DNA from: Candidatus Hodarchaeota archaeon
GTDB taxonomy: Archaea > Asgardarchaeota > Lokiarchaeia > Sigyniarchaeales > SOKP01
Length of the DNA stretch: 64,000 nt
Assembly (NCBI GenBank): GCA_048887225.1
Contig: JBHLJY010000001.1
Location: 64,001 to 128,000 of the forward strand
Direction of reading: 5' to 3'
Part shown: positions 3,232 to 22,737 of the stretch, in pieces
Numbering within the stretch: position 1 is the stretch's first letter
How the letters are laid out: the number at the start of each line of letters is the position of its first letter
The notes under the pieces: generated by a model
What the model saw: only the letters and a program-made list of their open reading frames with translations
The model's database searches: none
Told to the model about the DNA's origin: nothing
Made by a program: the position numbers and the translations under genes

Positions 3232-5337
3232 TTGAGCTATTTACATCCCATAGAAGAGATTGTAGGGAAATCATTTTTAGTTAATCCAAACTTAGGCCAT
3301 CCAATGATTCTAAGTATAGATCCTGAGCTAAAAAATGATGATTTTGAAATAAATTTGTTATATATTAGCAATATAAAAGATCCTAAAAAATTTGAGAAAC
3401 ACATTACCAAAAGAATAAAAATAATCCCTATTCTCGAGTATAAGTGGAAGCTGAAATTAATACTAGAAAAAATGAGAAAAGAAATCGATTTAAAAAAAAA
3501 AGAAAAGAAGAAAAGTTTTTGGCAAAGATGGAAGGAAAGAAGGTCTTCAAAAAAAAAGAAAAAATTAAAAACTTCAGAAACAGAGAGTAAAACGCTTGAG
3601 TCTGATTTTGTTGAAATCGAACTCGAAGACGAAAGATTAAGAAGATTAAAACCACGAGCATTTCGAGGAGATCCAATAATTCCAACAATATGGAAAGTCG
3701 AAAATGTCTCTATAACTGCGATTAATGATCTAAATTATGAGGAATATTGTAGCCCGCATGATCATTTGTTAAAACATAATATTTATGGCAATTTAGATCT
3801 TTTCTTTAGGGTAACAATTAGGTTTGATTTAACAGAAGAAGTAATAGAATTTTTAAAAAGGCGGAAATTTGTCATGTTTGATATTGTACAAAAAATAGAT
3901 AACTTTCAAAATCGAATAAATTATCATTCAATTGTTATTTCAAAACAAGATTGGGAAAATTTTACTTTCATTCATGCCACAGATTTACATATAGCTGAGA
4001 GAAATGATAAAATATACGAAATTATTAAAAAATGGACAAAAATATTCAGTGGAGATTATCTAAATGCAATTACAAAAGAAAAAGATTTTAAAATCGAAGG
4101 ATTAGAAGAAAAAGAATTACTAAAAGATGATGAAATACATAAACCTTTAAAAAAAAGATTAGTAAATCCGAATAATCAATTTAGACGGTTTATTAAATTA
4201 ATGAATAGAAAGGTTCTACAGAATGAGTTAGATTTCATAGCTTTAACAGGTGATCTTATTGATTTTTCTTTATTAAGTAAATTTCCAAAAGAATTGAAAA
4301 TGTTTGACTATAGCCACAGTAATTGGAAAACTTTTAAAGAAATAGTGTTAAATTTGCCTCAAAAAAAAAGAAAAGGTAATGTTAAAGGGGAAGAACTATT
4401 ATGCCCCATATTTACAATTCCCGGTAATCACGATTATCGCCCTTTTCATTATGATATAAGATGGGCAGGATTTTATAGAAAAATGGGTCTAAAAGCATCC
4501 GAGGCACTTGCTTTAAACGATAAGTTGTTAGCTTTACCTGTTTCTGCGATTATAAAAAGTAAAAAATCTTTAAAAGGATATTGGTTAGAGATCAATCCTT
4601 CATTAGATTATTTTCTAAAGTTTGGAAAATCTAACTTTATTTTTTTAAACACAGGTTCAGATTCCTTTAAAAATCTTAGTGATCTCGTAACAGGTCATCC
4701 TTCATTAACAGGACTTAAAAAGAAACAAATCAGTTATTTAGAAAATTTAATTAAGAATAAAATCCAACAAGGAGATAATACTTTCCTTTTTCTTCATGGA
4801 CCAGTAATTAATCCAAAAAAGAAAATGGGCATTCTTAAAAGGATCAAACATAAATTTGGGAAAAGGATTTCAACAAAAATAGATGAATTTAGAGAATCTC
4901 TGCTTAGAAAGTTTGTAAAAAAAACCTCAAAAATCCGCATTGATAAAAAATTTAACGTGAAATATGGAACTGTTTCATCAAATTGGGAAAAACTTGTTAA
5001 ATTTTGCAAAGATTATTGCGTTCTTACTATGACTGGACATACACATACTCTTAAAGAGTTTAGATTAGGAGACCCAGAACATAAAAAATCAAAAGTATTT
5101 GATGCTCCTCCGTTTAGCTTAAAAAAAATAGAAAATCCAGCAGCAATTTTTTTTGATACATATTCAGAGGTTTTTACAAATGCAAAAGATATAGAAAAAT
5201 TTGGACCATTTGTAGTTCAAACACCAGCATTAGGATTAGCTGGGTATAGGAGTCCTAGATTGGTCGGTGCATATAGAGTGATAAAAATTAAGCATGGAAA
5301 ATTATCTTCTTTCAAAGTTAAATATATCCATAGATGA
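3232..5337 (+). CDS. Calcineurin-like metallophosphoesterase with long N-terminal extension
   Basis: Motifs HATDLH, LTGDLID, PGNHD, HGP, GHTH. Confidence 0.8.
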   Translation: MSYLHPIEEIVGKSFLVNPNLGHPMILSIDPELKNDDFEINLLYISNIKDPKKFEKHITKRIKIIPILEYKWKLKLILEKMRKEIDLKKKEKKKSFWQRWKERRSSKKKKKLKTSETESKTLESDFVEIELEDERLRRLKPRAFRGDPIIPTIWKVENVSITAINDLNYEEYCSPHDHLLKHNIYGNLDLFFRVTIRFDLTEEVIEFLKRRKFVMFDIVQKIDNFQNRINYHSIVISKQDWENFTFIHATDLHIAERNDKIYEIIKKWTKIFSGDYLNAITKEKDFKIEGLEEKELLKDDEIHKPLKKRLVNPNNQFRRFIKLMNRKVLQNELDFIALTGDLIDFSLLSKFPKELKMFDYSHSNWKTFKEIVLNLPQKKRKGNVKGEELLCPIFTIPGNHDYRPFHYDIRWAGFYRKMGLKASEALALNDKLLALPVSAIIKSKKSLKGYWLEINPSLDYFLKFGKSNFIFLNTGSDSFKNLSDLVTGHPSLTGLKKKQISYLENLIKNKIQQGDNTFLFLHGPVINPKKKMGILKRIKHKFGKRISTKIDEFRESLLRKFVKKTSKIRIDKKFNVKYGTVSSNWEKLVKFCKDYCVLTMTGHTHTLKEFRLGDPEHKKSKVFDAPPFSLKKIENPAAIFFDTYSEVFTNAKDIEKFGPFVVQTPALGLAGYRSPRLVGAYRVIKIKHGKLSSFKVKYIHR

Positions 5338-14575: not shown

Positions 14576-15742
14576 TCACTCCAAGATTTTTTTGAGGTAT
14601 TCCGTCAGATCTATTACATCTATATTGATACCTCGCCTCTTACTCGCTTCCTTTAAATTATGCTTACAGAAGGGACAACATGAAATTAATGTCTGGGCTC
14701 CTGTATCTTTTGCTTCTTCAAGCCTTTCAAGACCTGACCAAGTCGCAAAATCTGAATAAGCTGCTTTTACACCTGAACCAGCACCACAACACCAAGAAAA
14801 TTCTTTATTTCTCTCCATTTCGATTAATTTAACTCCAGGAATGTTACTTAGAATCTTACGTGGAGCGTTATAAATGTTCAAGTGCCTTCCTAAATGACAA
14901 GGATCATGATAGGTTATAATTTCATCTATATTTTTAAATTTAAAAGAATCTGTCAACTCAGCTAAAAACTCCACTATATGAAGAGGTTTAAAGGAGTAGC
15001 TTATTCCGAATTTTGGATAATCTTCTTTAAAAGCTCGATAACAACCTGCACACGAAAAAATTACTTTTTCGGCTCCTAAATCCTCTATGATTTTTATATT
15101 ATGTTGCATTAATTTCATTGCGAGATCTCGTTGCCCAGTTCTAAGGAGAGGGCTACCACAACACCACTCATCAAATAATACACTATATTTAATATTTAAT
15201 TTTCTTAAAATACTTGTAACAGATTCAGCAATCTCAGTAGTTCTATATGCTGTTGTACAGCCCACGAAATAGACAAGATTTTCTTTCTTATTTATTGCAC
15301 TCTTATCTTTGAGCCATTGAAACCTTTTTTCGTGTGGTTCATGGTATGGATTATTATTTTTTTCAATACTTTCTTTAAATCTAGTGTGCTCAGGGAGAGG
15401 ACCGAAGCCGTCTTTAACGATCTTTGTTTTGAGTTCCTCAAAGATCTCCAAAGGCCTTAGCTCTTTAACATAATAACATTGAGCATTACAAGCACCACAT
15501 CCTGTACAAGCGTAGAAAATGTGAAGTAATCTGTCTGTATAGTCTAAATCTCCATCGCAAATCGCCCGTGTGATTTCCATTTTCCCAGATGCATAATAGG
15601 CATCAAAATGAAAACGAGTACCACTTGGACATATGGCTGAATAGCGGGCACTTTTTACCTCAAATGGTAAAACTATCTTACAAATCGAACATTTACCACA
15701 ACGAGCGGCTTTGTCTCTATAATCCTGTAGCATATTTTTCAT
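14576..15742 (-). CDS. Fe-S oxidoreductase, GlpC/GlcF/HdrD family
   Basis: CGKCSIC, CTGCGACNAQC, two CCG domains (EWCCGSP, YHDPCHLGR, CCGAG, CPFC). Confidence 0.9.
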   Translation of the reverse strand: MKNMLQDYRDKAARCGKCSICKIVLPFEVKSARYSAICPSGTRFHFDAYYASGKMEITRAICDGDLDYTDRLLHIFYACTGCGACNAQCYYVKELRPLEIFEELKTKIVKDGFGPLPEHTRFKESIEKNNNPYHEPHEKRFQWLKDKSAINKKENLVYFVGCTTAYRTTEIAESVTSILRKLNIKYSVLFDEWCCGSPLLRTGQRDLAMKLMQHNIKIIEDLGAEKVIFSCAGCYRAFKEDYPKFGISYSFKPLHIVEFLAELTDSFKFKNIDEIITYHDPCHLGRHLNIYNAPRKILSNIPGVKLIEMERNKEFSWCCGAGSGVKAAYSDFATWSGLERLEEAKDTGAQTLISCCPFCKHNLKEASKRRGINIDVIDLTEYLKKILE

Positions 15743-15751
15743 CTTAAATTC

Positions 15752-17128
15752 TTATATTGATAACTTCTTAGGATTTATTATATTATTTGGGTCTAATTGA
15801 TTCTTAATACTTTTCAAAAAACTCTTAAACATCGGGTTTTTAGAGTAAACAATACTATCTATCCGTTTATTGGGCCTATCCACATTTCCTCCAAGATTCG
15901 ATATCAATTGATATAAATCAATATAAAGTTTTTCTACCATTTCTTTTTCGTTTGGTTTTGTAGGATCTGCGTATATATAATACTCAACGAAACAAGCACG
16001 CCCTAATTCTACTGGAGTTATAAAAGTTCCTAATTCTTCAGATGAATAATTATTTTCTCCAAGATAACTAAGTATATTAGAATTGAATTCTGATAATCTG
16101 TCTAAAGTAGTATAAAATGAAATTTTTCTGCAAATCGTTTTGTATTCAAGAATCCTTGATATTCTCTGGGGGCATAAAAACTCGTTTAGAAGATCGTCTG
16201 CAAAATTTTCCAAACTATCGATCGGAGTTAGACCAAGATCTTTAAAATCTTCTTCTTGATATTTAATCTTTTCTTCAGGTCCTGCTAAGCATAATAATAA
16301 AGTCCATTGTGGTAGTTCATTAACTAGTGATTTAAAGTCGGCTGAATTTTTACTTAACATAGCTGCCAAATTAAAATTTTTTGATAGTAAGCACTCTTCA
16401 CCAAGCTCGATCCGTTGGATTTTATATAGAACATCTACAGCATCTTCAATTTTACTAAAAGCAAGAAATAATAATTTTCGAGATTGGGGCATAGCCTTAA
16501 TTTTGATAGTTGCTTTTGCTACTATTCCCAAGTTTCCATGTGCCGCTGTAAAGACGCGAGACATATCAGGACCTCCACCAAAAGGCCAATAAAACGGTTT
16601 TTTCATGCTTTTCATAGAGGATGCCCCCGTTTTTAAGATCTCCCCTGTTGGTAAAACAACATCCATCGTTAAAATACACTGCCAACCATTTGCTAATAGT
16701 GGTTTTGGAGCTGAAAACAACGGAACTCTCTCAATATAACAATTTAAGACTGAAATTGAAGCAGGTAAGCCTAAAGGATTCATGGCCCTAAATTCATACT
16801 TATTTAGCTCTGTTTGGAGTTGTAAAAATGATACGCCAGGTTGGATTGTTATAGCTCTAGATATTTTATCTAAATCTTGAATTTTGTTCATTCTATAAAA
16901 ATCTAAAATAACATCATTAGTAATTAAATCATCTATTCCGTGATAATTATCGTCGCAAGTTTTAATATGAATGTTAAATTTTTGCTGGTTAGCAGCTTGA
17001 ATTATATTTTGGATGTCCTCTGTGTTTCCTGGTGAAACAATATAAGCTTCGGAATCTTTTTTTACATACGCATTCCCAACAATATCAACCAATTTATCTA
17101 AAACAATATCACCACTCAAAAAAATCAC
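15752..17128 (-). CDS. FAD-binding oxidoreductase (GlcD/VAO family), divergent subunit
   Basis: PGNTEDIQ, DFYRMNKI, MDVVLPTGEILKTG, GPDMSRVF, GNLGIV, LDPNNIINP. Confidence 0.82.
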   Translation of the reverse strand: MIFLSGDIVLDKLVDIVGNAYVKKDSEAYIVSPGNTEDIQNIIQAANQQKFNIHIKTCDDNYHGIDDLITNDVILDFYRMNKIQDLDKISRAITIQPGVSFLQLQTELNKYEFRAMNPLGLPASISVLNCYIERVPLFSAPKPLLANGWQCILTMDVVLPTGEILKTGASSMKSMKKPFYWPFGGGPDMSRVFTAAHGNLGIVAKATIKIKAMPQSRKLLFLAFSKIEDAVDVLYKIQRIELGEECLLSKNFNLAAMLSKNSADFKSLVNELPQWTLLLCLAGPEEKIKYQEEDFKDLGLTPIDSLENFADDLLNEFLCPQRISRILEYKTICRKISFYTTLDRLSEFNSNILSYLGENNYSSEELGTFITPVELGRACFVEYYIYADPTKPNEKEMVEKLYIDLYQLISNLGGNVDRPNKRIDSIVYSKNPMFKSFLKSIKNQLDPNNIINPKKLSI

Positions 17129-17129
17129 C

Positions 17130-18623
17130 TCATTTTGGAAGATACACTCCTGGGTTCATTATATTGTTCGGATCTATTATCTTTTTAAACTTTTTCAATA
17201 TCTTATAGTAAGAACCAAGTTCTGGACCAATAATTTCACCAGCACTGCCACAAACGGTCTCATAATAATTTAATCCCTCTCCATCTATCGTAAATGCTCT
17301 ATTAACCTCTAATAAAATCTTTTCCGCCAGCTTCCTATCGGTAGCTTGACCATGATCGTATATAATGTCCATTTCAATGAAAGCATAATGGTAATCATCT
17401 ATTGGTTGAATGTAATACGTTGTAAGATCCTCGTATCCAAATTTTTTACAAATTTCTTCAAATTTATCGAATATTTTAAATGAGTTTTCAATATCATGTA
17501 AATAGACCGTTATTCCAAATGCTCCTTTAGGTCTCATTATCCTCACTGTAATTGTCATATAATCAGCTTGACGAACTATTCCTGTTTCTGCGGGTTTAGG
17601 ATCAATACCCATTTCAGCCCCTCCAAACATCTCAACGATTTCAGCCAAATTTAAATAAGTACCTTTAGTTTCTTCGACTATTTTATTGAAAACTTGCTCT
17701 TCATATTCCACTTGCCTTTTTGTACCCTCAAAAAACGCTAATATCGTGTAAGGAGGCAATAAATTCATTACTTGCGAAGCAGTCTCGTTATTAAGCGTGA
17801 AGAAATGAGCTGCATAAGTTGCGGGCATATGAACATAACCAGATGATGCAATGCCAGTTTTTTGAATTCGATTCAGAGCTTCTAAAACTTGATCTGGTTC
17901 ATTGTACAAAACAATGTAACTATTTCTTATCTCAGGTTTTGGATAAAGTTTAACTTTAGCTTTCGTACATATTCCAAGACCTCCACTGGCCTCGAGAAAT
18001 AAGCCCAATAAATCAGGGCCAGGAGAGTTTCCAGTACATCCTGTCTGCCAACCGTTTTGATATACACAGGAGCCTAATTCCAATAAATTACCATCTGGTA
18101 AAATCCACTCAAGACCAACAATATGATTATCTCCGACACCGTATTTAACAGATGCTATGCTTGTTCCTCTCGTACCAATATAGTTTGCCATCACAGAGAC
18201 GCTCCCCGGGGCGCTTGGAACAATAATTTTTAATTCTCTTTTATAGGCTTCTGCTTGTAGCTGAGCCATTAAGACACCCGGTTCTATGGTGGCAGTCATG
18301 TTTCTCTCATCAATATCAATAATCCTATCCATCCTCTTCAAATCTATTAAAAGCCCACCTTCTGAAGATGGTATACAAAGACCCGCAACATTTACTCCAG
18401 TGGTTCGTGGAATAACTGGAATCTTAAATTTATTAGCAATTTTAACTACAGCTTGGACATCTTCTGTTGAACCAGGTAAAACGACAAATGTTGGATTTTT
18501 AGCTGGTTTAGGAGATTGATCTCTTGAATAACAAATAAGAATAGCTGGATCTGAAGAAATATATTCTGATCCTAATGCTTCTGTTAATTCTTTAAGAATG
18601 GTTTTCTTTTCTGTAGCTAACAT
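17130..18623 (-). CDS. FAD-binding oxidoreductase (GlcD/VAO family)
   Basis: VVLPGSTEDVQ, IDLKRMDRI, EPGV, GPDLLGLF, GGLGICTK, IDPNNIMNPG. Confidence 0.87.
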   Translation of the reverse strand: MLATEKKTILKELTEALGSEYISSDPAILICYSRDQSPKPAKNPTFVVLPGSTEDVQAVVKIANKFKIPVIPRTTGVNVAGLCIPSSEGGLLIDLKRMDRIIDIDERNMTATIEPGVLMAQLQAEAYKRELKIIVPSAPGSVSVMANYIGTRGTSIASVKYGVGDNHIVGLEWILPDGNLLELGSCVYQNGWQTGCTGNSPGPDLLGLFLEASGGLGICTKAKVKLYPKPEIRNSYIVLYNEPDQVLEALNRIQKTGIASSGYVHMPATYAAHFFTLNNETASQVMNLLPPYTILAFFEGTKRQVEYEEQVFNKIVEETKGTYLNLAEIVEMFGGAEMGIDPKPAETGIVRQADYMTITVRIMRPKGAFGITVYLHDIENSFKIFDKFEEICKKFGYEDLTTYYIQPIDDYHYAFIEMDIIYDHGQATDRKLAEKILLEVNRAFTIDGEGLNYYETVCGSAGEIIGPELGSYYKILKKFKKIIDPNNIMNPGVYLPK

Positions 18624-18825: not shown

Positions 18826-20844
18826 ATGAGCAGTGTAAGAAAAAAACTCTGGGAACCCTCGGAAGAATGGATCAAAAACGCAGAAGCAACCCGTTTTATC
18901 GAATTTGTCAATAAAAATTACGGACAAGATTTAAAAGGAGGTAAAGACCTTTATAAATTTTCTGTTGAGAAAATAGAAGATTTTTGGGACGCAATGTGGA
19001 AATTTTCAGATATTATCGTATCCAAACCTTACGATAAAGTTGTTGAAGACTTAAGTGTATATCCAGGTACAAAATGGTTTCCTGGAGCCAAGTTAAATTT
19101 TGCTGAAAACCTCTTGAAGTTTAAGGACGAACAATTGGCTTTTGATTTCCAAGGTGAAACGAAAGTATCTAAACAAATGACATATGCCGAATTAAATAAG
19201 AGAGTTGCACGTATAGCAAAATCCCTCCGTGAAATGGGGATTAAAACTGGAGATAGAGTTGTCTCTTATATTCCGAATTTAATTGAAACACCAATAGCTA
19301 TGCTTGCTGCTACAAGTATAGGCGCAATTTGGGCATCATGTGGTGCTGAACTTCAATCCAGTGCTGTTATCGATAGATTTGGGCAAATTGAGCCAAAAGT
19401 ACTCTTTTCAGTTGATGGGTATTACTATAGGGGTAAGGCTTTTAAAATTAGTAAAAATATCAAGGAAGTAGTCGATGCAATCCCCTCGATAGAAAAAGTA
19501 ATTGTTGTTTCGTACATATCCGATGGTAAGCCAGACATTAGTGACATTCCCAAGGCAGTCCATTGGGATGATTTTATTTCTAAGGAGGAAGATCCACCAA
19601 TCGAATTCGAACAATTGCCATTCGACCATCCTGTTTATATAATGTTTTCCTCTGGGACAACTGGAAAGCCAAAATGCATGGTCCAAAGTGCGGGTGGAGT
19701 TCTTATTAATCATTTAAAAGAACTAATACTCTCAACAGATTTAAAAAGAAACGATGTAATAAACTATATCACCGCGCCCTCATGGATGATGGTATAAGAT
19801 CACCTTATTCCAGCCAAAATGTGGAACTGGCTTATCAGTGCCTTAGCTGTGGGCGCCACGATATTCTTGTACGAGGGAAATCCGCTATATCCAGATCCAT
19901 TAAGATTTTTTGAATTAATGGAAAAACATAAGATCACGATATTTGGTACAAGCGCAGCTTATATCCACTACTTAATGGGATTGGGAGTAAAACCAGCTGA
20001 AAAGTATGATTTAAGTGCGTTAAGAGAGATTTCACAGACGGCATCAACTCTCTCTCCCGAAGGATTTGAATATGTTTATAGAGAAATTAAAAAAGATCTT
20101 TACTTCAATTCAATAAGTGGGGGAACAGATATTAATGGATGCTTTGCCGGAGCAATACCAATTCTTCCAGTATATTCTGGTGAATTACAAGGTCGTGCGT
20201 TAGCTATGAAAGTTGAGTCTTATAATGAAAATGGAGAGCCTATTGAAGATGAACAAGCCGAGCTGGTATGTGAGGCACCCGCTCCCTCAATGCCTACATA
20301 TTTCTGGGCTGATGATGATAAGATGACAAAATATAATGCTGCTTATTTTGATTTTTATAAGGATAAAGGCAAAAATGTATGGAGGCATGGAGACTACATA
20401 GTAATTCATAGCGATACGGGTGGCATTACTTTTTGGGGCAGATCTGATGCGGTTTTGAAACCATCAGGAGTCCGAATTGGAACGGCAGAAATTTACAATG
20501 TGGTTGAGCAACTGCCAGAAATAGCGGATTCGTTAGTGATAGGACAAAAGATCAGTGGTGATATACGAATTGTAATGTTTGTTCTCTTAAATGAGGGTTA
20601 TGAATTGGATGATAACTTGAAAGCTAAAATTAAAAAGACACTACGGGAAAAAACCTCTCCAAGACATGTTCCTAAACTCATATTCCAAGCCCCTCCAGAT
20701 GGTATACCATATACGTTTAGTAATAAAAAGGTCGAAATAGCAGTAACTAAAATTATTCATGGAATGTCCGTTGCAAACCGAGGGGCGTTAAGAAATCCAA
20801 ACTCACTGGATTTCTATGAAGAAATCAAGAATGAGTTAAAATAA
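18826..20844 (+). CDS. Acetoacetate-CoA ligase, predicted join(18826..19788,19819..20844), 662 aa
   Basis: WFPGAKLNFAENLL, AMP-binding FSSGTTGKPK, SISGGTDI, WRHGD, GRSDAVLKPSGVRIGTAEIY; the two ORFs are in the same frame and removing 30 nt restores SWMMWNWL. Confidence 0.9.
19789..19818 (+). other. Putative archaeal bulge-helix-bulge (BHB) mRNA intron, 30 nt
   Basis: ATGGTATAAGATCACCTTATTCCAGCCAAA; in-frame TAA; outer stem CCUCA/UGUGG, central helix UGGA/GCCA, 3-nt bulges UGA and AAA, inner stem UGGUAUAAG/CUUAUUCCA; cutting after the second base of each bulge gives ATG|ATG. Confidence 0.8.
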
Positions 20845-21305: not shown

Positions 21306-21483
21306 TTTTTAAATTTTTAAAAAATGCTATTGTTCTAATAGAACTAATTAATAAAAAAATCTAAAGATAATAAACTTATTACTTTTTTGAGAAAAAACTA
21401 AGGAAGATCTATAATTATTTTTTTATTCTTATATTTATATCATTGTATTATTAGAGAAAATTCAAAATTAGGTGAACTTTAAA

Positions 21484-22737
21484 TTGGCAAAAATGACTTC
21501 ACGAGAAAGAATTAATGCTGCTATAAGCCATAAGGAACCAGATATGGTCCCCATTGACCTTGGCTCAACAGAAGCAACGGGAATATCGGCAATCGCTTAT
21601 CATAATTTAAAAAAGCTCTTAGGGATGAGAAGTGGACAAACCCGTATATACGATATTTCTCAACAACTTGCTCAACCTGAAGATGAAATTCTTGACCGTT
21701 TTAAAGTTGATACCGTTCATTTAGGACGATTCTTTAACGATAGCGAGGATGATTGGTATGATATCGAAGTAAATGGTATTCCTGCACAGTTTCCTTCATG
21801 GTTTTCACCCAGACACAATGAAGATGGCTCGATGGAGGTAGTTCATCCTGATGGAACGGTTTTAGCAAGAATGTCAGAGGCAGCATTAGTATTTGATCAA
21901 ACATTTTGGCCTTTTTATGATAAATATCCAGAGAATATAAGCGGATTTTTGCAAGCATTAACTAAATATCAAGGATTTGCATTAGTTAAAACTCCTTTTG
22001 ATAAATTAAATCAAAAAGGTTTTTGGCGAAAGTTAAGAAAAGAAACAATTGAGTATAAGAAAACAACAGATAGGGCTCTTGTTTTACATATGGGATTAAG
22101 TCTTTTTGAATTTGGGACTGGTATGCGACGAATGGATAAATTCTTAATTGATATAATTCGACGCCCAAATAAGGTTGAGAAATTTTTAGATATCGTATTA
22201 GAGTTTAATTTTGCTGCACTTTCGTTAGTTTGTAAATATCTTGGAGATCTTGTTGATGTTATTGGTATAGGTGACGATCTTGGTGAAAATAAAGGCCCTT
22301 TTATGAATCCAAGAGCATATCGCGAGATCTTTAAGCCACGTCATGAAAGTATGTGTAATTTCATTAAAAATCATTCTAATATGAAAATCTTTATGCACAG
22401 CTGTGGATCTATTGTTCCTTTTATTTACGATTTCATTGAAATTGGAATTGATATATTAAATCCGGTCCAGATTAACGCGAAAGGGATGGAACCTAAGTTT
22501 TTAAAAGAGGAATTTGGAGATGATATCACATTTTGGGGTGGTGGAGCCGATACGAGAAATGTAATTACCCGAAAATCTCCTGAGGAAGTTAAAAAGCATG
22601 TTACAGAATTACTCGAAATATTTGCTCCTGGTGGAGGTTATATTTGGAATACTGTTCATAATATCCTACCAGATGTTCCCCCTGAAAATATTGTGGCAAT
22701 GTTTGAAGCACTTCATGAATATAATGAAAAGATATAA
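21484..22737 (+). CDS. Uroporphyrinogen decarboxylase / MtaA-CmuA methyltransferase family protein
   Basis: MTSRERI, GDDLG, HSCG, LNPVQ, FWGGG, HNI.PDVPPENI; TTG start behind AGGTGA. Confidence 0.85.
   Translation: MAKMTSRERINAAISHKEPDMVPIDLGSTEATGISAIAYHNLKKLLGMRSGQTRIYDISQQLAQPEDEILDRFKVDTVHLGRFFNDSEDDWYDIEVNGIPAQFPSWFSPRHNEDGSMEVVHPDGTVLARMSEAALVFDQTFWPFYDKYPENISGFLQALTKYQGFALVKTPFDKLNQKGFWRKLRKETIEYKKTTDRALVLHMGLSLFEFGTGMRRMDKFLIDIIRRPNKVEKFLDIVLEFNFAALSLVCKYLGDLVDVIGIGDDLGENKGPFMNPRAYREIFKPRHESMCNFIKNHSNMKIFMHSCGSIVPFIYDFIEIGIDILNPVQINAKGMEPKFLKEEFGDDITFWGGGADTRNVITRKSPEEVKKHVTELLEIFAPGGGYIWNTVHNILPDVPPENIVAMFEALHEYNEKI

What the first reader, a model, noticed from the sequence alone, without database searches (positions are those of the whole stretch)
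19778..19824. Candidate bulge-helix-bulge mRNA intron in an Asgard acetoacetate-CoA ligase gene
Seen: ORFs 18826..19797 and 19819..20844 are the two halves of one acetoacetate-CoA ligase, in the same frame, and the family motif W-M-M-W-N-W is interrupted by exactly 30 extra nt containing a TAA. The junction folds as outer helix CCUCA(19778-82)/UGUGG(19820-24) with one U-U mismatch; 4-nt central helix UGGA(19783-86)/GCCA(19813-16) with 3 pairs plus A-G; 3-nt bulges UGA(19787-89) and AAA(19817-19) on opposite strands; and inner hairpin UGGUAUAAG/CUUAUUCCA (8 of 9 paired) with a 5-nt loop. Established: archaeal tRNA-splicing endonuclease (EndA) cuts after the second nucleotide of each bulge and RtcB ligates. 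Applying that rule removes 19789-19818 and gives TCA TGG ATG|ATG TGG AAC TGG (SWMMWNW), a 662-aa protein. BHB introns in protein genes are well known mainly from crenarchaeal cbf5. Inference: this Asgard archaeon splices a metabolic mRNA with the tRNA machinery, possibly as an on/off switch (the unspliced RNA stops at codon 324), conceptually like eukaryotic HAC1/XBP1 non-spliceosomal splicing. More such micro-introns may be hidden as split genes.
Basis: partly seen in the sequence, partly recalled or inferred. Interest (0 to 1): 0.95.

Follow-up and report, generated by a model that had tools for sequence, protein, structure and literature searches.

The report
tRNA-type mini-intron in an Asgard ligase gene
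A 30-base insert carrying a stop codon splits the only acetoacetate-CoA ligase gene of this Asgard archaeon; it has the shape cut by the tRNA-splicing enzyme and has been kept across many species, so the mRNA is very probably spliced, which published work confirms in archaea only for cbf5.

Summary
ORFs 18826-19797 and 19819-20844 are the two halves of one acetoacetate-CoA ligase. Exactly 30 nt with a TAA split the invariant SWMMWNW motif.

- **Real and old:** the same 30-nt insert sits at the same site in 22 loci of 21 species genomes of one Promethearchaeota family, and in 22 metagenome contigs.
- **Gene still in use:** every genomic copy gives a full reading frame once the 30 nt are removed. 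Both halves are under strong purifying selection (dN/dS 0.07 and 0.05, dS about 1.9).
- **RNA structure under selection:** the inner 9-bp stem shows compensatory changes. The strand that pairs with exon 1 and the AAA bulge are nearly invariant. Synonymous sites next to the insert are the most constrained in the whole gene, but only in insert-bearing alleles.
- **Geometry and machinery:** the layout and cut sites match candidate tRNA introns of the same genome. The genome has two EndA paralogs and RtcB.
- **A class, not a one-off:** three more inserts of 29-30 nt with the same layout lie in the acetyl-CoA synthetase paralog and in rtcB itself. They lack matching take-off and landing codons, which argues against translational bypass.

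No RNA data could be found, so splicing is inferred, not shown. The "on/off switch" idea has no support. This scan has reported similar mRNA introns before, in this genome and in others.

The parts
18826..19788 (+). Exon 1 of acetoacetate-CoA ligase (321 codons, ends ...S W M)
   Evidence: TIGR01217 profile positions 4-319. dN/dS of this half is 0.073 among intron-bearing alleles.
19774..19779 (+). 5' strand (GCGCCC) of a possible long-range closing helix; its partner is 19851-19856
   Evidence: RNAalifold on 22 sequences. The two third-codon pairs are standard pairs in 20 and 19 of 22 sequences, with G-C, A-U and U-A variants at one of them. The other four pairs are forced by the Ala-Pro and Gly-Ala codons, so support is weak.
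19778..19782 (+). Outer helix h, 5' strand (CCUCA, exon 1)
   Evidence: 77% of cells are paired across 21 distinct sequences, with no compensatory change; it is broken in G021, which uses AGU for Ser.
19783..19786 (+). Central helix H, 5' strand (UGGA, exon 1)
   Evidence: Three invariant pairs plus an A.G mismatch. The fourth pair is A-U in G090.
19787..19789 (+). 5' bulge UG|A; predicted cut after 19788
   Evidence: Same geometry as candidate canonical tRNA introns of this genome.
19789..19818 (+). The 30-nt intron
   Evidence: Exactly 30 nt in 22 genomic loci and 22 metagenome contigs. Precisely absent from 20 orthologs.
19790..19812 (+). Inner hairpin h': 9-bp stem (19790-98 with 19804-12) and 5-nt loop (19799-19803)
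   Evidence: 95.8% of cells paired; 4 of 9 pairs have changes on both sides; 0 of 500 shuffles reach the observed covariation score; slid controls pair at 29-48%; the loop varies freely.
19795..19797 (+). In-frame TAA inside the 5' arm of the hairpin
   Evidence: A stop at this codon in all 44 copies: TAA in 41, TAG in 2, TGA in 1. The variants are A-to-G changes that also keep pairing, so selection for the stop is not shown.
19813..19816 (+). Central helix H, 3' strand (GCCA, intron)
   Evidence: CCA is invariant although non-coding. The first base varies among G, A and U.
19817..19819 (+). 3' bulge AA|A; predicted cut after 19818
   Evidence: Invariant in the 22 genome loci. The three sibling introns also end in AA before the cut.
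19820..19824 (+). Outer helix h, 3' strand (UGUGG, exon 2)
19819..20844 (+). Exon 2 (341 codons plus stop, begins M W N W)
   Evidence: profile positions 319-649. dN/dS is 0.045.
19851..19856 (+). 3' strand (GGGCGC) of the possible long-range helix
   Evidence: It lies inside the stretch of exon 2 where synonymous variation is depressed in intron-bearing alleles only.

Best explanation
The 30 nt at 19789-19818 are a tRNA-type (bulge-helix-bulge) intron in the acetoacetate-CoA ligase pre-mRNA. In the transcript, the exon-1 bases UGGA pair with the intron bases GCCA. The intron forms a 9-bp hairpin stacked on that helix. This leaves two 3-nt bulges on opposite strands, in the same handedness as at tRNA anticodon-loop introns. 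The two-subunit splicing endonuclease EndA of the organism would cut after the second base of each bulge (19788|19789 and 19818|19819). RtcB would join the exons, giving an mRNA for a normal 662-aa enzyme with the SWMMWNW motif restored, plus a small, probably circular, intron. Shown here: the structure, its conservation and covariation, selection on both halves of the gene, presence of the enzymes, and sibling introns with the same layout. Inferred: the cutting and the joining themselves.
For: (1) Both halves match one family end to end.
(2) The same 30-nt insert lies at the same site in 21 of 161 class genomes, all in one family, and in 22 metagenome contigs. Removing it gives a full reading frame in all 22 genomic copies.
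(3) dN/dS is 0.073 and 0.045 for the two halves at dS about 1.9, as low as in intron-less alleles. In the 7 intron-bearing genomes it is the only copy above the family cut-off.
(4) The inner helix is 95.8% paired, and 4 of 9 pairs show compensatory changes. No shuffle of 500 reaches the covariation score. The loop is free to vary, while the intron strand of H and the AAA bulge are nearly invariant.
(5) Synonymous variation in intron-bearing alleles is lowest, out of 667 windows, exactly at the junction (0.22 against 0.49 gene-wide). The same codons are unconstrained in intron-less alleles (0.57).
(6) The cut rule applied to the structure gives one of the four frame-restoring registers. The chance of such a layout is about 0.003.
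(7) Candidate tRNA introns of this genome show the same geometry. There are two EndA catalytic-domain paralogs, as in the broad-specificity two-subunit type reported for Asgard archaea (PMC5829648). RtcB is present.
(8) Three sibling inserts share the layout. ACS intron A is 30 nt and is found in 2 species, with an exon-intron compensatory change in H. ACS intron B is 30 nt, is found in 5 species, is 89% paired, and has 4 covarying pairs. The rtcB insert is 29 nt, shifts the frame, and has a perfect UUGG/CCAA central helix.
Against: No RNA evidence: no RNA run holds the locus, and no near-identical uninterrupted product is on record (best hit 88% identity). The central helix has only 3 standard pairs in all but one lineage. 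The outer helix is weak, does not covary, and is broken in G021. The single-sequence fold is no better than shuffles. My genome-wide structure-plus-ORF scans showed no excess of the canonical geometry over a mirrored control, so no independent genome-wide count supports it. The depressed synonymous variation could also come from co-conversion of flanks if the intron moves between alleles. It is unexplained how splicing would precede translation where the two are coupled.
Confidence: 0.77

Rival explanations
1. Programmed translational bypass: the ribosome, with peptidyl-tRNA-Met on AUG 19789-91 (or 19786-88), slides over the hairpin and lands on AUG 19819-21. It makes the same 662-aa protein from an unspliced mRNA, as in phage T4 gene 60 or the mitochondrial byp elements.
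For: Identical AUG codons flank the gap. A stop codon and a hairpin follow the take-off site. The gap length is constant. Bypass would also explain intact selection on both halves.
Against: The stop is one codon after the take-off codon, not next to it. The matching AUGs come from the Met-Met motif itself. The conserved GCCA strand pairing with exon 1 and the AAA bulge have no role in this model. The sibling inserts of identical layout in ACS (A and B) and in rtcB have no matching take-off and landing codons.
Confidence: 0.06
2. A genuinely split gene: a 323-aa N-terminal and a 341-aa C-terminal polypeptide are made separately (the second from ATG 19819) and assemble into an active ligase. The hairpin would serve as a translational coupling or stability element.
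For: An ATG stands exactly at the start of the second half. Both halves are under purifying selection.
Against: By eye there is no Shine-Dalgarno-like sequence before ATG 19819. The break lies inside an invariant motif. This model does not explain the exon-intron pairing, the constant 30 nt, or the repeated precise absence in close relatives (G006 has it, G009 lacks it). In ACS the piece between introns A and B is only 25 codons and has no start codon. The rtcB insert shifts the frame in mid-motif.
Confidence: 0.07
3. The insert is removed from the RNA, but by enzymes other than EndA and RtcB. Alternatively it stays in the mRNA and the stop is read through, giving a 672-aa protein with a 10-residue insertion.
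For: No enzyme assay exists. The insert is always in frame in this gene.
Against: The structure is the known EndA substrate and matches candidate tRNA introns of the genome. The ten inserted codons vary as an RNA stem-loop would, not as a peptide would. The rtcB insert is 29 nt, so read-through cannot apply to the class.
Confidence: 0.06
4. Pseudogene, or an assembly or sequencing artefact.
For: A gene caller sees two fragments. The genome is a 49-contig assembly.
Against: The same insert occurs in 44 independent assemblies. A public run holds 19794-20037 without a difference. Both halves are intact, with dN/dS below 0.1 at saturated dS.
Confidence: 0.02

Closest known systems
BHB intron of the cbf5 pre-mRNA in Crenarchaeota (Watanabe 2002; Yokobori 2009, PMC2738675)
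   Same: A short intron inside a protein-coding gene, with a bulge-helix-bulge at the exon-intron junctions. It disrupts a conserved motif, is patchily present or absent among relatives, and is presumed to be removed by the tRNA-splicing endonuclease and ligase.
   Different: Different phylum (Promethearchaeota/Asgard) and a metabolic gene, with no sequence relation. Here it is one of several such introns in one genome. cbf5 splicing was confirmed on RNA; this one was not. PMC2738675 states that no archaeal pre-mRNA splicing other than cbf5 had been confirmed, and my searches found no later report for Asgard protein genes.
Archaeal tRNA introns cut by two-subunit EndA with the L1 loop (PMC5829648; bioRxiv 10.64898/2026.10.13.758758)
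   Same: Same motif, handedness and cut rule, and the same genome-encoded enzymes. The relaxed motif (strong inner helix, weak outer helix) is the kind this enzyme type accepts.
   Different: The host RNA is an mRNA, so there is no tRNA body to help folding or recognition. Removal must compete with translation.
HAC1/XBP1 unconventional mRNA splicing (IRE1 plus tRNA ligase/RtcB)
   Same: Spliceosome-independent endonuclease cuts in small stem-loops of an mRNA, followed by joining by the tRNA ligase. Removal changes the reading frame or the product.
   Different: IRE1 is unrelated to EndA and recognises paired 7-nt loops, not a BHB. That system is a regulated stress switch, and no regulation is shown here.
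Translational bypass elements (T4 gene 60; byp elements of Magnusiomyces mitochondria)
   Same: A short non-coding gap with a stop and a hairpin inside a coding sequence, flanked here by identical codons.
   Different: The stop does not abut the take-off codon. There is exon-intron pairing typical of a BHB. The sibling inserts lack matched codons.

Membership tests
Archaeal BHB intron (EndA substrate) | [quoted passage not shown] | tested here: met
   The central helix has 3 invariant standard pairs plus A.G (A-U in G090), so the motif is relaxed, not strict.
Archaeal BHB intron (EndA substrate) | Inner helix h' stacked on the central helix and maintained in evolution | tested here: met
   The 9-bp stem is 95.8% paired. 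Four pairs have compensatory changes, and 0 of 500 shuffles reach the covariation score. Further variants appear.
Archaeal BHB intron (EndA substrate) | Outer exon-exon helix h | tested here: inconclusive
   77% of cells paired, no covariation, broken in G021. An alternative long-range helix exists, partly forced by codons.
Archaeal BHB intron (EndA substrate) | Cuts after the second base of each bulge give a functional product | tested here: met
   Removing 19789-19818 restores SWMMWNW and a 662-codon frame.
Archaeal BHB intron (EndA substrate) | The host encodes EndA and an RtcB-type ligase | tested here: met
   Two PF01974 paralogs. RtcB is present, but its gene is itself split by a 29-nt insert.
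Archaeal BHB intron (EndA substrate) | Spliced RNA and excised (circular) intron observed; cleavage by EndA | not testable with these tools
   No RNA holder was listed. The only run is of unknown kind and is held as contigs.
Programmed translational bypass | Matching take-off and landing codons, with a stop immediately after the take-off codon | tested here: inconclusive
   AUG/AUG match here, but the stop is one codon later. Sibling inserts of the same layout have no match.
Split gene (two polypeptides) | The second half has its own start codon and ribosome-binding signal, and each piece can be translated alone | tested here: inconclusive
   An ATG is present at 19819, with no SD-like sequence seen upstream by eye. 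In the ACS sibling case the middle piece is 25 codons without a start.

The most novel reading that the evidence does not exclude
This intron is not just tolerated but used. Splicing efficiency of the ligase mRNA, and of the many sibling introns including the one in rtcB itself, would be conditional. The tRNA-splicing machinery would then act as a post-transcriptional switch for metabolism in an Asgard archaeon. The in-frame stop would make unspliced RNA yield only a truncated product.
Probability: 0.12. Interest if true: 0.88.

Novelty: new member of a known kind. Interest (0 to 1): 0.7.

Why it matters
Published work confirms endonuclease-mediated mRNA splicing in archaea for only one gene, cbf5, in another phylum. 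Here a core metabolic gene of an Asgard archaeon can be read only after a tRNA-type intron is removed. The intron has been kept for a long time and has been gained or lost at least six times within one gene family. At least three sibling introns exist in the same genome, one of them in the gene for the splicing ligase.

If RNA data confirm splicing, three things follow:
- Protein-gene introns handled by the tRNA machinery would be a regular feature of the closest prokaryotic relatives of eukaryotes.
- Gene callers would be systematically mis-annotating such genes as fragments or pseudogenes.
- Intron gain and loss, and the timing of splicing relative to translation, could be studied in a prokaryote.

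Tried and rejected
- **RNA runs:** no RNA holder was listed for 19300-20300. The one run found (X1, kind unknown, held as contigs) has a contig identical over 19794-20037 and a relative's contig ending at 19788. Neither bridges the 5' junction.
- **First genome-contig scan:** Only one relevant locus came out, L110.
- **Genome-wide census:** I tried BHB geometry plus ORF merging at several stringencies. Counts did not exceed those of a mirrored-geometry control (71 against 57, and 165 against 152) and showed no peak at 30 nt. The AT-rich sequence and ordinary gene boundaries swamp the signal, so I give no genome-wide count.
- **Other in-frame stops in the window:** of those flanked by long open frames, the two with the longest flanks were put to Pfam. 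36354 separates pyruvate:ferredoxin oxidoreductase subunit genes, and 46324 gave no match; 15752 lies at a boundary between adjacent ORFs.
- **Exact product look-up:** the product of ORF 1 is not on record.
- **Search for a spliced product:** a homolog search with the stop read through found only uninterrupted 661-668-aa relatives at 88% identity or less. None was a near-identical spliced form.
- **Rfam:** nothing relevant.
- **Single-sequence fold:** not distinguishable from shuffles.
- **Energy comparison:** I discarded the comparison between free and BHB-constrained folds, because forcing non-standard pairs makes the energies incomparable.

Full report
**Observation.** ORFs 18826-19797 and 19819-20844 share a frame. 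They match the acetoacetate-CoA ligase models end to end: TIGR01217 positions 4-319 for the first and 319-649 for the second. The frame reads S-W-M-M-V-stop-D-H-L-I-P-A-K-M-W-N-W, while uninterrupted orthologs read SWMMWNW. Removing 19789-19818 gives 321 + 341 = 662 codons. Because ATG is repeated, four cut registers give the same product. The minimum-energy fold of this one sequence recovers only the inner hairpin and is no better than shuffles (z = -0.07). The case therefore rests on comparison, not on thermodynamics.

**Is it real and old?** A family search in 60 relatives found the same gene with one in-frame TAA in seven species of four genera. A pattern search allowing inserts of 20 to 50 nt at this motif was run over all 161 genomes held for the class. 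It found 22 loci in 21 genomes, all in one family and all exactly 30 nt. The control pattern gave nothing. A metagenome scan added 22 contigs in the ligase context, again all 30 nt. After removal of the 30 nt, all 22 genomic copies give an open frame of full length or running to the contig end. Among intron-bearing alleles dN/dS is 0.073 for the first half and 0.045 for the second, at dS about 1.9. That is as low as in intron-less alleles. In the seven intron-bearing genomes, the interrupted gene is the only match above the family cut-off. Artefact and pseudogene are therefore excluded, and both halves are translated.

**RNA structure.** I aligned the 22 loci (alignment A1).
- The 9-bp inner stem is 95.8% paired. 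Four pairs change on both sides (G-C, A-U, C-G), and 0 of 500 shuffles reach the observed covariation score. Slid controls pair at 29-48%. The 5-nt loop varies freely.
- The intron bases that pair with exon 1 (CCA of GCCA) and the AAA bulge are invariant in these 22 loci although they code for nothing.
- The fourth pair of the central helix is A.G in nearly all copies and A-U in one lineage (G090). The metagenome copies add further compensated variants.
- The outer helix CCUCA/UGUGG is weak. It is 77% paired, shows no covariation, and is broken where Ser is AGU.
- Consensus folding of a longer stretch suggests a closing helix, GCGCCC 19774-79 with GGGCGC 19851-56. Four of its six pairs are forced by the codons, so I treat it as a possibility only.

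**Constraint on the exons.** Per-codon synonymous diversity among intron-bearing alleles is lowest, out of 667 sliding windows, exactly at the junction (0.22 against a gene mean of 0.49). The dip runs from about codon -3 to +13. The same codons in intron-less alleles are unconstrained (0.57). This fits exon bases taking part in the structure. It would also fit co-conversion of flanks if the intron moves between alleles. I cannot separate the two.

**Evolution.** On the protein tree, the presence of the intron needs 7 changes, and at least 6 are forced by well-supported branches. Twenty-one of the 22 intron-bearing genes fall in one clade of 29. The sister genes of G006 (intron) and G009 (no intron) differ by a precise 30-nt presence or absence. 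Repeated exact loss or gain is what is reported for cbf5 (PMC2738675). The ATG direct repeat would also allow exact deletion by slippage; that is my inference.

**Geometry and machinery.** ARAGORN finds only 32 tRNA genes in this 98% complete genome, 15 of them with introns. Some of its candidate introns (for example tRNA-Ser CGA and tRNA-Met) can be parsed into the same arrangement: anticodon stem, 4 exon bases paired to the intron, a 3-nt bulge cut after its second base, and a 3' bulge reading AA|A. The genome has two EndA catalytic-domain paralogs of about 200 aa. This fits the two-subunit, broad-specificity enzyme reported for Asgard archaea (PMC5829648; bioRxiv 10.64898/2026.10.13.758758). 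RtcB is present.

**Sibling introns.** The acetyl-CoA synthetase paralog at G000:C2:88684-90609 carries two more 30-nt inserts with in-frame TAG. One lies between GEPI and NPEAW (C2:89800-89829) and one between YWQ and TETGG (C2:89905-89934).
- Orthologs lack exactly these ten codons, or carry them: insert A in 2 species and insert B in 5.
- Both have the same layout as the ligase intron: 1 + 9 + 5 + 9 + 4 + 2 nt.
- For B, 89% of cells pair and four inner pairs covary among only five sequences.
- For A, the fourth pair of the central helix changes on both sides between the two species, one side being a synonymous exon base.
- The rtcB gene is split at profile position 47 by a 29-nt, frame-shifting insert with a perfect UUGG/CCAA central helix and an 8-bp inner stem.
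- All four introns end in AA before the 3' cut.
- None of the three siblings has matching codons at its two ends. The piece between ACS introns A and B is 25 codons long with no start codon.

These facts argue against translational bypass and against split-gene expression for the class, and by shared architecture for the ligase intron too.

**Chance.** A 30-nt layout with at least 8 of 9 inner pairs and 3 of 4 central pairs occurs at 4469 of 6.54 million positions. That is about 0.003 over the four registers allowed by the protein. It is met independently at each of the three 30-nt sites, and the 29-nt rtcB insert has the same kind of layout.

**What is missing.** No RNA run holds the locus. 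The one run available shows only that the intron-exon 2 junction exists in another data set. No near-identical uninterrupted product is on record. My structure-based genome census failed against its control. Splicing is therefore a strong inference, not an observation. Nothing supports a regulatory switch. The stop at the third intron codon is present in all 44 copies, but its variants are A-to-G changes that the stem tolerates anyway.

**Comparison and novelty.** The mechanism is that of the cbf5 pre-mRNA intron of Crenarchaeota and of tRNA introns. It resembles HAC1/XBP1 only in being spliceosome-independent and ligated by the tRNA ligase. I found no paper reporting such introns in Asgard protein genes. 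PMC2738675 states that none besides cbf5 had been confirmed. Source names of close homologs place the organism in Promethearchaeota. This scan has already noted similar introns in this genome (thiolase, iolM, uL11, csp, a sugar kinase, rtcB) and in other Asgard genomes, and the same ligase intron in other genomes. I checked the rtcB note and the recurrence of the ligase intron myself. The rest I did not test.

**Verdict.** This is a real, conserved, tRNA-type intron in a metabolic mRNA: a new member of a known but very sparsely documented kind, with confidence about 0.77.

Noticed in passing
G000:C2:89800-89829 and 89905-89934 (locus L174/L175; outside the window): The acetyl-CoA synthetase paralog carries two 30-nt inserts with in-frame TAG, with the same 1+9+5+9+4+2 BHB layout. 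Insert A is shared with G001. Insert B is shared with G001, G004, G006 and G099. Many orthologs lack them precisely.
   Followed up: yes
G000:C13:33458-33486 (locus L209/L210; outside the window): The only rtcB gene is split inside GGVGY|DINCG by a 29-nt frame-shifting insert with a perfect BHB (UUGG/CCAA, 8-bp inner stem). The ligase that would join spliced exons therefore appears to need splicing of its own mRNA.
   Followed up: partly
G000:C1:186989-187213 and G000:C3:61052-61300 (outside the window): Two EndA catalytic-domain paralogs in open frames of about 200 aa, consistent with a two-subunit splicing endonuclease.
   Followed up: partly
Whole genome G000: ARAGORN finds only 32 tRNA genes in a 98% complete genome, 15 of them with introns. 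Many tRNA genes are probably interrupted at positions that the program cannot model.
   Followed up: no
G009 compared with G006 (loci L020/L176 and L026/L177): G009, in the same genus, lacks the ligase intron and both ACS introns. Its near-identical sister G006 has the ligase intron and ACS intron B. This hints at lineage-wide intron loss in G009.
   Followed up: no
G107 (loci L166 and L173): One genome holds two intron-bearing copies of the ligase gene with identical intron sequence, on different contigs and in different clades of the gene tree.
   Followed up: no
window 19823-19842: A small hairpin in exon 2 (GG.ACUG / CAGU.CC) is predicted by consensus folding. It is almost invariant in intron-bearing alleles, and the codons partly force it.
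   Followed up: partly
window 14576-18623 (- strand) and 21472-22737 (+): Neighbouring genes: two FAD-binding oxidase genes and a CCG/Fe-S protein (a glycolate-oxidase-like set) upstream on the other strand, and a URO-D family protein downstream. No obvious ketone-body operon surrounds the ligase.
   Followed up: partly
window 19788 and 19794 (run X1): In the one public run that holds the locus, one contig ends at 19788 (the predicted 5' cut) and another starts at 19794 inside the hairpin. This may reflect an assembly-graph branch between intron-bearing and intron-less strains.
   Followed up: no
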